A DNA stretch of 64,000 nt, taken from assembly GCA_035656255.1 (NCBI GenBank), contig DASRSV010000018.1, positions 68,384 to 132,383 on the forward strand. The letters are read 5' to 3'. The DNA comes from Thermoplasmata archaeon (GTDB lineage Archaea; Thermoplasmatota; Thermoplasmata; Lutacidiplasmatales; UBA184). Positions 46,328-59,514 of the stretch are shown here, in pieces. The number at the start of each line of letters is the position of its first letter. The stretch's first letter is position 1. Position numbers and translations under genes: made by a program. The notes below the pieces were generated by a model. It made no database searches, had not been told where the DNA came from, and saw only the letters and a list, made by a program, of their open reading frames with translations.

Positions 46328-47569
46328 GTGCTCGGGAGTCTAGTGCGTATGAATGCGCATTATCGCCGGTTCCGAATCCGACCCACGCGACCCGGCTCCT
46401 CACCGGAGGGCGGGCCGCCGTGGATCCTCGTTCCTGTCGTGGCGATCGTCCTTGCGGCGTGTCCCGGCGGCTTGCTCACCGATGGCGCCCGCGCTCCGGC
46501 GAAGAGCTTCGGGGAAGGAGCGACGACGCTCGCGGGGATGTTCCCCACTCCGATTCGGCATGTGATCGTGGTGTTCTTCGAAAACACGGAGGTCAACACC
46601 ACCCTCGCCGGCGCGCCGTTCGAGCGGTCGATCGCGGCGCACTACGCGTTCGCGAGCCAATTCTACGCGGTCGCGCACTACTCCCTGCCGGACTATCTCG
46701 CCGCGACCTCGGGCGCCGTGAAGAGCCCGGCGACCCCGTTCAGCGCCCGGAACATCGGAGACCTCGCCAAGGCCCGGAATCTCTCGTGGGATGGGATCAT
46801 GGAGGGGATGCCGACCGCATGCGACCGCCAGGACGACTGGAGCGTGGGCTACGACGTCGCTCATGACCCGTTCGTCTGGTATTCCGACGTGATCCACAAC
46901 CCCGGTCGCTGCGACCAGCGCGTGGTCAACATGACGGCGTGGAACGCGTCGCTGGCCGTGGGAACGCTCCCGAACTACGTGTTCCTCTCGCCCGACACGT
47001 TCGATGACGCCCACAACGGCACCCTCCTCCAGGCGGACGCTTGGCTCGCGAACCTCACCCGTTCCCTGCTCGGGCATCCGCGTCTCTTCGCCTCGACCGC
47101 GCTGTTCGTCACCTACGATGAGGGTACGTCGAACCTAGGATTCAACGGAACCAGCGGGGGCCACGTGTACCTGGCTCTCGTGAGCCCGTTTGCCCGGTTC
47201 GGGTACAACTCCACCCACCCGTACAATACGATCAGTCTGCTCACCACCGCCGAATGGCTGCTCGGGCTCGGACGCACGGGACACAACGACAACTGGTCGG
47301 TGAATCCGCCGATGCGAGACCTGTTCAACTTCGCGAAGAGCTACGCGGTCGGCGGCTCCGTCACCGACCTCTCCGGGACCCCGATCGTCAATGCCACGAT
47401 CTCGGACGGGCTCGGGGTGTCGACGACGACCAACGCCTCCGGAGGGTTCGTCCTCTACCTGTCCTCGGGATCCTACAATCTCACGGCCTCCGCGGCCGGG
47501 CTCGTCCCGGTCACCCGGTCGATCGTGGTCCACCACGCGGCGATCACGGGGATCCGGTTCCGACTCTGA
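46328..47569 (+). CDS. secreted PF04185-type phosphoesterase (PlcN/AcpA family) with C-terminal CarboxypepD_reg-like beta-sandwich
   Basis: IRHVIVVFFENTEVN, AHYSLPDYLAATSG, VFLSPDTFDDAHN, FVTYDEGTS family blocks. N-terminal hydrophobic WILVPVVAIVLAAC. C-terminal GSVTDLSGTPIVNATISD...GGFVLYLSSGSYNLTASAAG. Start may be the ATG at 46349. Confidence 0.75.
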   Translation: MLGSLVRMNAHYRRFRIRPTRPGSSPEGGPPWILVPVVAIVLAACPGGLLTDGARAPAKSFGEGATTLAGMFPTPIRHVIVVFFENTEVNTTLAGAPFERSIAAHYAFASQFYAVAHYSLPDYLAATSGAVKSPATPFSARNIGDLAKARNLSWDGIMEGMPTACDRQDDWSVGYDVAHDPFVWYSDVIHNPGRCDQRVVNMTAWNASLAVGTLPNYVFLSPDTFDDAHNGTLLQADAWLANLTRSLLGHPRLFASTALFVTYDEGTSNLGFNGTSGGHVYLALVSPFARFGYNSTHPYNTISLLTTAEWLLGLGRTGHNDNWSVNPPMRDLFNFAKSYAVGGSVTDLSGTPIVNATISDGLGVSTTTNASGGFVLYLSSGSYNLTASAAGLVPVTRSIVVHHAAITGIRFRL

Positions 47570-47621
47570 CCAGACCCGACGCGCCGGCAGGCCGAGCTGG
47601 AGCGTACTGCGGACGCATAGG

Positions 47622-57597: not shown

Positions 57598-57669
57598 TGG
57601 GGGCTCGCTCGGGAAACCTCCGCCGGCCGAGACCGACGGTCGAATCATGATTTTCCGGAGGTCCCCACC

Positions 57670-59514
57670 TTGACCGGGCTCCCTTCCCTCCGCGGGCCGC
57701 CGAGGTCTCGCGTCCCGTCCCGATCGGCAGCATCGGTCGCCGCACAGCGGATCGGACCGTGGGTGGGAGCGGCCATCCTGCTGCTCACGGTACCGGCCGC
57801 AGCCGTTCTGTCGACGGCGGTCCCGACGTGGAGCGCCGCACCGCGGGCCGGTACGCTAACGTACGCCCTGTACCCCGCCGCGCCCTCCCCATCGAAGATC
57901 CCGATCCAGCACATCGTCGTCCTGATGCAGGAGAACCACGACTACGACAATTACTTCGGAACCTACTGTCAGTCGACCAGTCTCACGTGCGCCTACGTCG
58001 GGAACGGAATCCCGACGGGGACGTGTGTCCTGAAGGACCCGGCGATTCCGAGCCAGGGCTGCATCTCCCCGTACCCGTTTCCGAACGGGACGCCGCTCAC
58101 GGGCGACATCCAGCACAACTGGGTCTCCGGTCACGTCTCGCTCGACGGCGGGAAGATGGACGGCTTCTACCAGGCGGAGCGGTCCGGGAACGCGCCGTTC
58201 GGCTACTTTGACGGGAAGACGATTCCGGGATACTGGGACCTGGCCGAGCAGTACGGGCTGGGCGACAACTTCTACGCCAGCACGCTCTCGTACTCGCTCC
58301 CGAACCACTGGTACCTCATGGCCGGCGCTGCGCCGGCCGAGTCGGAGACGGTGCTCCTGAAATCCAAGGGCACACCGAACCTATCAGGCCCACAGGAGAT
58401 CTACCTCAACGAGTCGAACGCCACGCGCGCCATCGACGACCTCCTGATCAACTCGTCCGTCAGCTGGACATACTACGCGGCGAACCTGTTCCCGAACTAC
58501 ACCGCCGCGATCAACGACCACGCCGGCGGGGGCGGCGCGTTCGCCTACTGGAACCCGCTCGCGGCCAAGGCGGAGACGTACGGGGGGTCGTTCCCGAGCC
58601 ACTTCGTGGACCGGAACCAGTTCGCCTCGGACGTCGCGAACGGGAACCTCTCGAACATCTCCTGGGTGATGCCGTCGGCGGTCCAGTCGGACCATCCGCC
58701 CTACAACGTCTCCCTGGGGCAGTCGTGGGTGTTGAGCTGCATCAACCAGGTCGAGCAGTCGAACTACTGGAACTCGACCGCCATCTTCCTCACGTGGGAC
58801 GACTACGGGGGCTTCTACGACCACGTCGCGCCGCCCAAGTTCGGGCAGAACTACCTCTCCTTCCGGGCGCCGCTCCTCGTGATCAGCCCGTACGCCCGAC
58901 AGGGGTACCTCTCCCACCAGCTCGGCGAGTTCAGCTCGCTGCTGCGCTTCATCGAATGGCGGTACGGGTTCTCGAACCTCACCGCTCGCGACGGTTCCGC
59001 GGCCCTCCCGCTCGGCTACTTCGACTTCAACGCGACCCCGCGACCGCCGATGACGATCGGAGCGAACGGCAACGTCCCCCCGTACCCGATGGGGCTCCAG
59101 AAGCTGCCGCCCCCTCCGGCGCCAACCGGCTTCACGGTGACCGCGGCGAAGAGGAGCGCGATCCTTCGCTGGACCCCCGCGTCGGGCGGAACCGCCGTCT
59201 CCTGGTACCACCTCGCGTACCATCCGGCAGGGAACAGCTCCGCGTCGCACGCGATCCGCATCGACGGGGCGGCGAACGGCTTCGTCGTCGGGAACCTCAC
59301 CTCGGGAACGAAGTACGTCTTCACGCTCCAATCGGTGACAGGGGCGAGTCGATCGGCTCCCGTGAACGCCACCGGTGTTCCAACAGTGCCGGTCGGGGGC
59401 CTACTTCCGGCACTGGCAACCTCCGCGCCGGGAGTTTTCGGCACGGGGCCGGTCTCCGCGGTCGGCGCCGCGCGCCTTTCGACGGACGGACGAGGATCCC
59501 GTACCCCGGTCTGA
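57670..59514 (+). CDS. secreted PF04185-type phosphoesterase with C-terminal FN3 domain (tandem paralog)
   Basis: [51 protein letters not shown] blocks. FN3 ILRWTPASGGTAVSWYHLAYHP...FVVGNLTSGTKYVFTLQS. TTG start preceded by GGAGG about 8 nt upstream. Confidence 0.75.
   Translation: MTGLPSLRGPPRSRVPSRSAASVAAQRIGPWVGAAILLLTVPAAAVLSTAVPTWSAAPRAGTLTYALYPAAPSPSKIPIQHIVVLMQENHDYDNYFGTYCQSTSLTCAYVGNGIPTGTCVLKDPAIPSQGCISPYPFPNGTPLTGDIQHNWVSGHVSLDGGKMDGFYQAERSGNAPFGYFDGKTIPGYWDLAEQYGLGDNFYASTLSYSLPNHWYLMAGAAPAESETVLLKSKGTPNLSGPQEIYLNESNATRAIDDLLINSSVSWTYYAANLFPNYTAAINDHAGGGGAFAYWNPLAAKAETYGGSFPSHFVDRNQFASDVANGNLSNISWVMPSAVQSDHPPYNVSLGQSWVLSCINQVEQSNYWNSTAIFLTWDDYGGFYDHVAPPKFGQNYLSFRAPLLVISPYARQGYLSHQLGEFSSLLRFIEWRYGFSNLTARDGSAALPLGYFDFNATPRPPMTIGANGNVPPYPMGLQKLPPPPAPTGFTVTAAKRSAILRWTPASGGTAVSWYHLAYHPAGNSSASHAIRIDGAANGFVVGNLTSGTKYVFTLQSVTGASRSAPVNATGVPTVPVGGLLPALATSAPGVFGTGPVSAVGAARLSTDGRGSRTPV

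What the first reader, a model, noticed from the sequence alone, without database searches (positions are those of the whole stretch)
46328..59514. Three secreted PF04185-type phosphoesterase paralogs (one plus a tandem pair) with CarboxypepD_reg or FN3 tails
Genes at 46328-47569, 55756-57597 and 57670-59514 share the PlcN/AcpA phosphoesterase blocks (I[RQ]H[IV]VV...EN..., YSLPNHW[FY][20 protein letters not shown]) and N-terminal signal-anchors. The first ends in a carboxypeptidase-regulatory-like beta-sandwich; the tandem pair each end in an FN3 domain. Three extracellular copies suggest phosphate scavenging or lipid head-group remodelling at the cell surface. They sit in the same neighbourhood as the giant surface proteins.
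Basis: partly seen in the sequence, partly recalled or inferred. Interest (0 to 1): 0.55.

Follow-up and report, generated by a model that had tools for sequence, protein, structure and literature searches.

The report
Three secreted archaeal phosphoesterase genes
A soil archaeon (class Thermoplasmata) carries three genes for cell-surface or secreted phosphate-ester-cleaving enzymes of a well-known family, all with intact active sites; they are most likely ordinary phosphorus-scavenging enzymes, not a new kind of system.

Summary
ORFs at 46328-47569, 55756-57597 and 57670-59514 (+ strand) all pass Pfam PF04185 (Phosphoesterase; 6.7e-18, 7e-71, 7e-68). The first also has a CarboxypepD_reg tail and the other two an FN3 tail.

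All three have a hydrophobic N-terminal anchor and a high density of N-glycosylation sequons.

Two corrections apply:
- The first gene is not a close paralog of the pair (23% identity). It belongs to the short SapM-like phosphomonoesterase branch and lacks two of the quoted blocks.
- The pair is an old tandem duplication (56% identity) inside a large Thermoplasmata-specific clade. This clade meets neither NCBI's PlcH/PlcN threshold nor its AcpA threshold.

The window comes from a Lutacidiplasmatales-like Thermoplasmata MAG. Identical proteins are already in NCBI as "alkaline phosphatase family protein".

The family is multi-copy in related soil archaea, and its next relatives are in Nitrososphaeraceae and Acidobacteria.

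Substrate (monoester versus diester or lipid) cannot be decided from sequence. Extracellular organic-phosphate hydrolysis is the best-supported role.

Verdict: a new member of a known kind, of low to moderate interest.

The parts
46328..47569 (+). P1: SapM-like short PF04185 phosphoesterase with a C-terminal CarboxypepD_reg beta-sandwich. The likely true start is ATG 46349 (M8), downstream of an AT-rich box at about 46310-46322.
   Evidence: Identical to NCBI protein P0001, which is annotated from V38.
46421..46465 (+). P1 N-terminal hydrophobic segment (residues 32-46, WILVPVVAIVLAACP), preceded by an Arg-rich stretch. Signal anchor or signal peptide.
   Evidence: Kyte-Doolittle 2.5 over 15 residues. 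Homologs have the same layout. The Cys is not conserved, so it is not a lipobox.
46541..47341 (+). P1 catalytic core (residues ~72-338). Active-site residues: E85, N86, S119 (nucleophile), H179, H229, D264, E265. C165 and C195 are conserved.
47348..47566 (+). P1 CarboxypepD_reg-like beta-sandwich (residues 341-413).
   Evidence: Pfam 6.1e-12. All-beta model with pLDDT above 90. PDB carboxypeptidase D domain hit.
55756..57597 (+). P2: PF04185 phosphoesterase plus FN3, first gene of the tandem pair. Start ATG 55756 follows GGTG; an AT-rich box lies at about 55610-55625.
   Evidence: (identical to NCBI P0084, 613 aa).
55813..55863 (+). P2 signal or anchor hydrophobic region (residues 20-36, [17 protein letters not shown]), following RRRRVER.
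   Evidence: Kyte-Doolittle 2.09.
55966..57030 (+). P2 catalytic domain. Active-site residues: E80, N81, D138, H141, S201 (nucleophile), N204, H205, H334, D369, D370. Four Cys at 92, 99, 111 and 123.
57211..57414 (+). P2 FN3 domain.
   Evidence: Pfam fn3 8.5e-7. Aligns with the P3 FN3.
57670..59514 (+). P3: PF04185 phosphoesterase plus FN3, second gene of the tandem pair. TTG start lies 7 nt after GGAGGT; the intergenic gap to P2 is 72 nt.
   Evidence: (identical to NCBI P0083, annotated from V32).
57760..57813 (+). P3 signal or anchor hydrophobic region (residues 31-48).
   Evidence: Kyte-Doolittle 2.05.
57904..58968 (+). P3 catalytic domain. Active-site residues: E88, N89, D146, H149, S209 (nucleophile), N212, H213, H311, H342, D377, D378. 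Cys at 100, 107, 119 and 131 are invariant in the Thermoplasmata clade.
59119..59370 (+). P3 FN3 domain, followed by a low-confidence Gly/Ala/Pro-rich tail with no strong transmembrane segment.
   Evidence: Pfam fn3 6e-11. Beta-sandwich over residues 486-569 with pLDDT about 95. Tail hydropathy 1.28.

Best explanation
The three genes encode catalytically competent, N-glycosylated phosphoesterases of the PLC/AcpA (PF04185, alkaline-phosphatase-fold) superfamily. They are exported and either held on the cell surface by an N-terminal anchor or released after cleavage.

Shown:
- Family and fold.
- An intact active site in all three.
- A hydrophobic N-terminus.
- Sequon density similar to the neighbouring giant surface proteins.
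- Conserved cysteines.

Inferred from characterised relatives (AcpA, SapM, NPC4): a Ser hydroxyl (P1 S119, P2 S201, P3 S209), positioned by a metal held by Glu-Asn and Asp-Asp/Glu, attacks the phosphorus and forms a phospho-enzyme. A His-activated water then releases it.

P2 and P3 also keep the Asp-His dyad that in NPC4 protonates the leaving group. They keep the P-N that follows the nucleophile in PLC-type enzymes, and they lack AcpA's H287/H288 pair. I therefore lean towards a phosphodiester substrate for them, such as a phospholipid or glycerophosphodiester head group.

P1 is collinear with SapM and keeps its seven essential residues, so I lean towards a broad phosphomonoesterase.

Most likely role (inference): hydrolysis of extracellular organic phosphate esters to obtain phosphate, and possibly carbon, in acidic phosphorus-poor soil. 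The beta-sandwich tails would act as spacers or binding modules. A diesterase-then-monoesterase relay between P2/P3 and P1 is possible but unproven.
For: - Family: Pfam scores.
- Residues: AcpA E43/N44/H106/S175/H350/D386/D387 and NPC4 E23/N24/D76/H79/T158/H264/D299/E300 (papers read) map to P3 E88/N89/D146/H149/S209/H342/D377/D378. These are invariant or nearly so in 18- and 36-sequence alignments.
- P1 residues E85/N86/S119/H179/D264 are invariant and E265 nearly invariant in the 24-sequence alignment. H229 is present in P1 but is replaced in 5 of the 24 homologs. All seven match SapM E59/N60/S95/H160/H204/D238/E239 in a collinear alignment at 28% identity.
- Export: hydrophobic N-termini. 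Sequon density is 1.6-2.9 per 100 aa, against 0-0.3 in three cytoplasmic proteins of the window and 3.2-3.4 in the giant surface proteins. Conserved Cys pairs.
- Habitat signal: the family is multi-copy in acid-soil Thermoplasmata MAGs, and the nearest outgroups are Nitrososphaeraceae and Acidobacteria/Terriglobia.
- Linkage: P1-type genes lie within about 10 kb of P2/P3-type genes in 7 of 34 related loci, and sulfatase-family genes in 9 of 34.
Against: - No biochemical data exist for any archaeal member.
- No pst/pho genes or other phosphate-regulon marker lie next to the genes, and there is no conserved synteny.
- Substrate cues conflict. The Ser nucleophile and the Asp-Asp pair resemble AcpA. 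The P-N motif and the missing H287/H288 resemble PLCs.
- Both NCBIfam specific models score far below cut-off.
- Signal-peptide cleavage, the Tat-versus-Sec route and actual glycosylation were not predicted with dedicated tools.
It was checked only against the eight published residue numbers.
Confidence: 0.7

Rival explanations
1. P2 and P3 are true phospholipases C that attack membranes of other soil organisms (bacteria, fungi). They would act as lytic or antagonistic factors, or feed the heterotrophic archaeon with diacylglycerol and phospho-head groups. Phosphate would be a by-product rather than the purpose.
For: JGI annotates most homologs as phospholipase C. The best NCBIfam hit is PC_PLC. 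The PLC-type P-N motif and the Asp-His dyad are conserved, and AcpA's H287/H288 are absent. Lutacidiplasmatales are described as probable obligate heterotrophs.
Against: PC_PLC scores 157-166 bits against a cut-off of 580. The nucleophile is Ser, not Thr, and there are no DUF756 C-terminal domains. The top structural neighbour is a water-soluble glycerophosphodiester hydrolase, not a lipase. No lipid-binding element was identified.
Confidence: 0.15
2. The enzymes remodel the archaeon's own outer-leaflet polar lipids. They would strip phospho-head groups from ether lipids when phosphorus is scarce, by analogy with plant NPC4/NPC5.
For: N-terminal anchoring would place the active site next to the cell's own membrane. 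NPC4 shares all eight catalytic positions with P2 and P3.
Against: Nothing in the sequence speaks to recognition of sn-glycerol-1-phosphate ether lipids. Close homologs occur in bacteria with ester lipids. There is no linked glycolipid-synthesis gene. The multi-copy expansion fits diverse external substrates better.
Confidence: 0.07
3. The proteins process the archaeon's own surface polymers, for example by trimming phosphorylated glycans or lipid-linked glycan carriers during assembly of the giant glycoproteins encoded nearby.
For: InlB-B-repeat giant surface proteins are neighbours here (33975-42837) and in 10 of 34 related loci. Sulfatase-family genes recur as neighbours in 9 of 34 related loci.
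Against: The genes are not in an operon with the giants: about 3.5 kb and 13 kb separate them, with opposite-strand housekeeping genes in between. The sulfatase and giant genes of related loci have no sequence match in the window. No precedent is known in this family.
Confidence: 0.05
4. One or more copies are non-catalytic binding proteins (pseudo-enzymes).
For: P1 lacks the H106-type segment and the YDHV block. The P2 and P3 tails are degenerate compared with homologs that carry a C-terminal transmembrane segment.
Against: Every residue shown by mutagenesis to be essential in SapM, apart from the non-essential K159, is present in P1. Every NPC4 and AcpA core residue is present in P2 and P3.
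Confidence: 0.03

Closest known systems
Mycobacterium tuberculosis SapM (secreted atypical Ser-based phosphomonoesterase, PF04185 short branch)
   Same: P1's catalytic core is collinear with the whole mature SapM (28% identity over 278 residues). It has the same compact ~260-residue layout. It carries E-N, the Ser nucleophile, the two His and the Asp-Glu pair at SapM positions 59/60/95/160/204/238/239, which mutagenesis showed to be essential. It also has an N-terminal export signal.
   Different: - P1 has Ala in place of K159, the residue linked to phosphoinositide binding.
- The nucleophile motif is YSL rather than PSE.
- P1 carries an extra CarboxypepD_reg domain and many sequons.
- It is archaeal and environmental, not a virulence factor.
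- The SapM sequence was recalled from memory and validated only by residue numbering.
Francisella tularensis AcpA (PDB 2D1G), prototype acid phosphatase of the superfamily
   Same: - It has a Ser nucleophile.
- It has E-N and Asp-Asp metal ligands.
- The H106 and H350 equivalents are present in P2 and P3.
   Different: - P2 and P3 lack H287/H288.
- P1 lacks the H106 segment.
- The TIGR03397 score is 131-134 bits (31 for P1) against a cut-off of 363.
- AcpA has no FN3 or CarboxypepD_reg tail and no Cys-rich insert.
Pseudomonas PlcH/PlcN and Streptomyces sanglieri glycerophosphoethanolamine ethanolaminephosphodiesterase (PDB 9GYE, 9GY2, 8YK5); plant NPC4 (8HAV)
   Same: These are the top Foldseek and profile hits of P3. 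They share the P-N after the nucleophile, the Asp-His dyad, the SxHP histidine and the W/Y-D-D/E-x-G-G-F-x-D-H block. All eight NPC4 catalytic positions are conserved.
   Different: - The nucleophile is Ser instead of Thr.
- His follows P-N instead of Arg (SLPNH versus TxPNR).
- There are no DUF756 or CTD domains; an FN3 is present instead.
- The TIGR03396 score is 157-166 bits against a cut-off of 580.
- A four-Cys insert occurs only in the Thermoplasmata sequences.

Membership tests
PF04185 PLC/AcpA phosphoesterase superfamily | Pfam HMM score above the gathering threshold (23 bits) | tested here: met
   P1 65.4 bits, P2 239.7 bits, P3 229.8 bits.
PF04185 PLC/AcpA phosphoesterase superfamily | Alkaline-phosphatase-like core fold superposable on AcpA | tested here: met
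   [not shown]
PF04185 PLC/AcpA phosphoesterase superfamily | Metal or activation site Glu-Asn plus Asp-Asp/Glu, Ser/Thr nucleophile, and the His equivalent to AcpA H350 | tested here: met
   P1 E85/N86/S119/H229/D264/E265, P2 E80/N81/S201/H334/D369/D370, P3 E88/N89/S209/H342/D377/D378.
Phosphocholine-specific PLC (TIGR03396; PlcH/PlcN type) | NCBIfam equivalog score of at least 580.25 bits | tested here: not met
   P2 165.7 bits, P3 157 bits, P1 no hit.
Phosphocholine-specific PLC (TIGR03396; PlcH/PlcN type) | Thr nucleophile in a T-x-P-N-R motif | tested here: not met
   P2 and P3 have S-L-P-N-H, invariant in their clade. The PLC chains show TNPNR or TSPNR.
Phosphocholine-specific PLC (TIGR03396; PlcH/PlcN type) | C-terminal DUF756-type domains after the catalytic domain | tested here: not met
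   Pfam finds only fn3 (P2, P3) or CarboxypepD_reg (P1) after the catalytic domain.
Phosphocholine-specific PLC (TIGR03396; PlcH/PlcN type) | Twin-arginine export signal | tested here: inconclusive
   P2 has RRRRVER and P1 has YRRFRI upstream of the hydrophobic segment, but neither fits the consensus spacing well. P3 has no RR. No Tat predictor was available.
AcpA-type acid phosphatase (TIGR03397) | NCBIfam subfamily score of at least 362.75 bits | tested here: not met
   P1 31.1 bits, P2 130.6 bits, P3 134 bits.
AcpA-type acid phosphatase (TIGR03397) | Substrate-binding His pair H287/H288 | tested here: not met
   The aligned region of P2, P3 and their clade has no conserved His. P1 keeps only the H288 equivalent (H179), with Ala at the H287 position.
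SapM-like short phosphomonoesterases | Compact collinear core with the seven essential residues E59, N60, S95, H160, H204, D238, E239 | tested here: met
   For P1 only: E85/N86/S119/H179/H229/D264/E265, in a 28%-identity alignment spanning SapM residues 44-297. Caveat: the SapM sequence was recalled from memory and checked against the eight published positions.
SapM-like short phosphomonoesterases | Lys159, important for phosphoinositide binding | tested here: not met
   P1 has A178 at this position, and the position is variable in the P1 family.
SapM-like short phosphomonoesterases | Phosphomonoesterase activity (pNPP, PI3P, PI(4,5)P2, ATP) | not testable with these tools
   Requires an enzyme assay.

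The most novel reading that the evidence does not exclude
The S-L-P-N-H clade (P2/P3 type) is shared by acid-soil Thermoplasmata, Nitrososphaeraceae and Acidobacteria. It could be a distinct substrate-specificity class of the PLC/AcpA superfamily. Together with the SapM-like monoesterases and sulfatase-family enzymes that recur next to it, it might form an extracellular organic-phosphorus mineralisation toolkit. That would make these abundant soil archaea unrecognised contributors to soil phosphorus cycling.
Probability: 0.2. Interest if true: 0.45.

Novelty: new member of a known kind. Interest (0 to 1): 0.2.

Why it matters
If the enzymes do mineralise organic phosphate esters outside the cell, they would add a concrete trait to Lutacidiplasmatales-like Thermoplasmata. 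These are common in acidic soils and known only from genomes. The one order-level genome paper I checked does not mention phosphatases or phospholipases.

The work also supplies a clean residue map for two uncharacterised archaeal branches of the PLC/AcpA superfamily, which makes expression and mutagenesis straightforward.

Otherwise this is routine annotation. The proteins are already deposited and generically named.

Tried and rejected
- Conserved synteny or an operon partner: tblastn of 18 window neighbours against 79 related loci found only P1-type genes and generic ABC ATPases.
- Phosphate-regulon neighbours: Pfam on ten flanking ORFs showed none.
- Lipoprotein anchoring of P1 through the LAAC motif: rejected, because the Cys is not conserved in homologs.
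- C-terminal membrane anchor or sorting signal after FN3: present in some homologs (P0099, P0100, P0108, P0111). It is absent or degenerate in P2 and P3.
- Recent horizontal acquisition of one copy of the pair: rejected. Both copies sit in the same Thermoplasmata FN3 subclade.
- Deciding the order of duplication and speciation: unresolved. Bootstrap gives 68% for P2+P3 and 32% for P3+(P0085,P0086).
- The afdb50 fold library was unavailable, so SapM could not be reached through a structure database.
- Literature on archaeal PF04185 and on the PDB codes gave nothing useful.
- A sulfatase-family gene like those flanking homologs elsewhere was sought in the window and not found.
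Full report
**What is there.** The window has about 70% G+C. It comes from a Thermoplasmata archaeon close to the Lutacidiplasmatales MAGs recovered from acidic soils.
- The best genome matches to P3 are Thermoplasmata MAGs at 55-61% identity.
- Proteins identical to all three ORFs are already in NCBI as [quoted passage not shown], on a 164,815-bp contig.
- A Logan assembly of run SRR12347816 carries the same pair.
- The three ORFs are at the reported coordinates on the + strand. 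Pfam assigns all three to PF04185. P1 also has a CarboxypepD_reg domain, and P2 and P3 an fn3 domain.

**Start codons and export.**
- For P1, an AT-rich box (about 46310-46322) precedes ATG 46349.
- For P2, ATG 55756 follows GGTG, downstream of an AT-rich box.
- For P3, TTG 57670 lies 7 nt after GGAGGT.
- The NCBI models of P1 and P3 start inside the hydrophobic segment (V38 and V32), which cuts off the charged N-region. Homologs support the longer forms.
- Each protein has a basic N-region followed by a hydrophobic stretch with Kyte-Doolittle 2.0-2.5.
- Sequon density is 2.9, 1.6 and 2.4 per 100 residues. Three cytoplasmic proteins of the same window have 0-0.3, and the two giant surface proteins 3.2-3.4.
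- Conserved cysteines (C165/C195 in P1; C100/C107/C119/C131 in P3) also point to an extracellular location.
- Dedicated signal-peptide or Tat predictors were not available.

**Relationship among the three.**
- P2 and P3 are 56% identical over their whole length, including the FN3.
- P1 is only 23% identical to P3 over 257 residues. It lacks the roughly 90-residue segment between the EN and SLP motifs and the GGFYDHV block.
- Profile-profile comparison joins the two families with 99.9% probability, but only over the last 235 columns.
- A neighbour-joining tree of 92 catalytic domains places P2 and P3 together. Two Lutacidiplasmatales-type sequences are next, inside a monophyletic Thermoplasmata group. 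That group is sister to Nitrososphaeraceae, with Acidobacteria and other bacteria outside.
- Bootstrap support is 68% for P2+P3, 32% for P3+(P0085,P0086) and 82% for the four together.
- The pair is therefore an old tandem duplication within a vertically expanded clade, not a separate acquisition. This rests on distance trees and a sample limited to the best 80 loci.
- Other genomes also carry tandem or clustered copies: L006, L010, L018 (three copies) and L022.

**Active sites.** The reference residues come from two papers.
- The SapM study lists AcpA E43, N44, H106, S175, H287, H288, H350, D386, D387. It also lists SapM E59, N60, S95, K159, H160, H204, D238, E239, with mutagenesis.
- The NPC4 study lists E23, N24, D76, H79, T158, H264, D299, E300.
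- HMMER alignments to the PDB chains and family alignments map these to P3 E88, N89, D146, H149, S209, H342, D377, D378. All are invariant or nearly so. P2 has the same set.
- The clade has S-L-P-N-H after the nucleophile position, where PLC-type enzymes have T-x-P-N-R and AcpA has S-T-P-G-A. It has no conserved counterpart of AcpA H287/H288.
- In P1, E85, N86, S119, H179 and D264 are invariant in the 24-sequence alignment and E265 is nearly invariant. H229 is present in P1 but is replaced in 5 of the 24 homologs.
P1 aligns to it collinearly at 28% identity over 278 residues, with every essential residue matched. The exception is K159, which is Ala in P1.

**Fold.** AlphaFold models have mean pLDDT of about 84 and confident cores.
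- P3 matches the same set by Foldseek, and its FN3 matches many FN3 structures.

**Subfamily membership.** NCBIfam's PC_PLC equivalog and acid_phos_Burk subfamily models score far below their cut-offs for all three proteins.
- P2 and P3 therefore belong to the superfamily but to neither curated subfamily. P1 fits the SapM-like short branch.
- JGI names many distant P1 relatives "phosphatidylinositol-3-phosphatase" and most P3 relatives "phospholipase C". These are automatic names.

**Context.** Flanking genes are unrelated housekeeping or unknown genes:
- M1 aminopeptidase, DUF1905/YdeI-like protein, cyclophilin, RNase H and an MGMT-like protein;
- an ABC transporter with an AAA_assoc_C protein.

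No phosphate-regulon gene is present, and synteny with the closest relatives is not conserved.

I clustered neighbour ORFs across 34 related Thermoplasmata loci. Recurrent neighbours of P2/P3-type genes are:
- giant proteins with InlB B-repeats in 10 loci, the same domain type as the window's giants at 33975-42837;
- sulfatase-family proteins in 9 loci;
- P1-type genes in 7 loci.

My rough estimate, not a computed statistic, is that chance would put a P1-type gene within 10 kb in only a few percent of loci.

**Function.** Characterised members of this superfamily hydrolyse several substrate types:
- phosphomonoesters (AcpA, SapM);
- phospholipids and sphingomyelin (PlcH, PlcN, NPC4, RePLC);
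- a soluble glycerophosphodiester (the Streptomyces enzyme).

Sequence cues for P2 and P3 are mixed, so the substrate is unresolved, with a lean towards phosphodiesters. P1 most resembles a broad phosphomonoesterase.

The family is multi-copy in acid-soil archaea and shared with Nitrososphaeraceae and Acidobacteria. With the extracellular location, this makes scavenging of organic phosphate esters the most economical role. This is inference. The Lutacidiplasmatales paper does not discuss these enzymes, and I found no literature on archaeal PF04185 proteins.

**Verdict.** These are well-annotatable members of a known enzyme superfamily, in two archaeal branches that no one has characterised. 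They are new members of a known kind, of low to moderate interest.

Noticed in passing
L003, L006, L007, L010, L011, L020, L021, L026, L032 (e.g. L032:6681-8987 -, L006:6071-8110 +): Sulfatase-family (PF00884) genes lie within about 10 kb of P2/P3-type phosphoesterase genes in 9 of 34 related Thermoplasmata loci. PF00884 belongs to the alkaline-phosphatase superfamily. The window has no sequence match to the L032 gene.
   Followed up: partly
L003:16587-18560, L016:3667-5877, L020:14761-15939, L024:16059-17405, L033:2359-3600, L038:14242-18384, L051:2344-3315: P1-type (SapM-like) genes lie near P2/P3-type genes in 7 of 34 related loci. The L038 version is a 1381-aa open frame that adds several CarboxypepD_reg repeats and a PQQ-like beta-propeller. 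This hints at a functional pairing.
   Followed up: partly
window 33975-38489 and 38434-42837 (+): Two ~1500-aa ORFs carry divergent InlB B-repeat (Flg_new_2) domains, and the first also a BNR-like region. Their sequon density is 3.2-3.4 per 100 aa. Giants with the same domain type neighbour the phosphoesterases in 10 of 34 related loci.
   Followed up: partly
window 46328-46441 and 57670-57765: The deposited NCBI gene models for P1 (376 aa, start V38) and P3 (583 aa, start V32) begin inside the hydrophobic segment. This removes the basic N-region. Upstream signals and homologs favour the longer forms.
   Followed up: partly
window 57967-58062 (P3 residues 100-131); P2 residues 92-123: Four cysteines in the insert between the EN motif and the Asp-His dyad are invariant in the 36-sequence, mostly Thermoplasmata, alignment. 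The first (C100) is gapped in the Nitrososphaeraceae and bacterial sequences inspected. They probably form two disulfides in a clade-specific loop.
   Followed up: partly
homologs P0099, P0100, P0108, P0111 compared with window 59371-59514 and 57415-57597: Some FN3-bearing homologs end in a clear transmembrane helix plus a basic tail. P2 and P3 instead end in low-complexity Gly/Ala/Pro tails without a strong hydrophobic segment, possibly degenerate anchors.
   Followed up: partly
window 60836-63954 (-): An ABC transporter gene set of unknown substrate lies just downstream of the pair, on the opposite strand. It comprises an AAA_assoc_C protein, an ATPase and a 533-aa permease with two BPD_transp_1 matches.
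   Followed up: no
window 50131-51240 (+), 51638-52468 (+), 53870-54490 (+): These ORFs have no Pfam match. Similar gene calls exist on the Logan contig: 369 aa at the same size, and shorter models of 268 and 167 aa. The 276-aa ORF has a hydrophobic N-terminus and several N-x-S/T sites, so it may be another surface protein.
   Followed up: no
window 16288-16362 (-), 32080-32153 (+), 60710-60782 (-): Three tRNA genes (Phe-GAA, Thr-CGT, Ala-CGC). No other Rfam family reaches its gathering threshold in the window.
   Followed up: no
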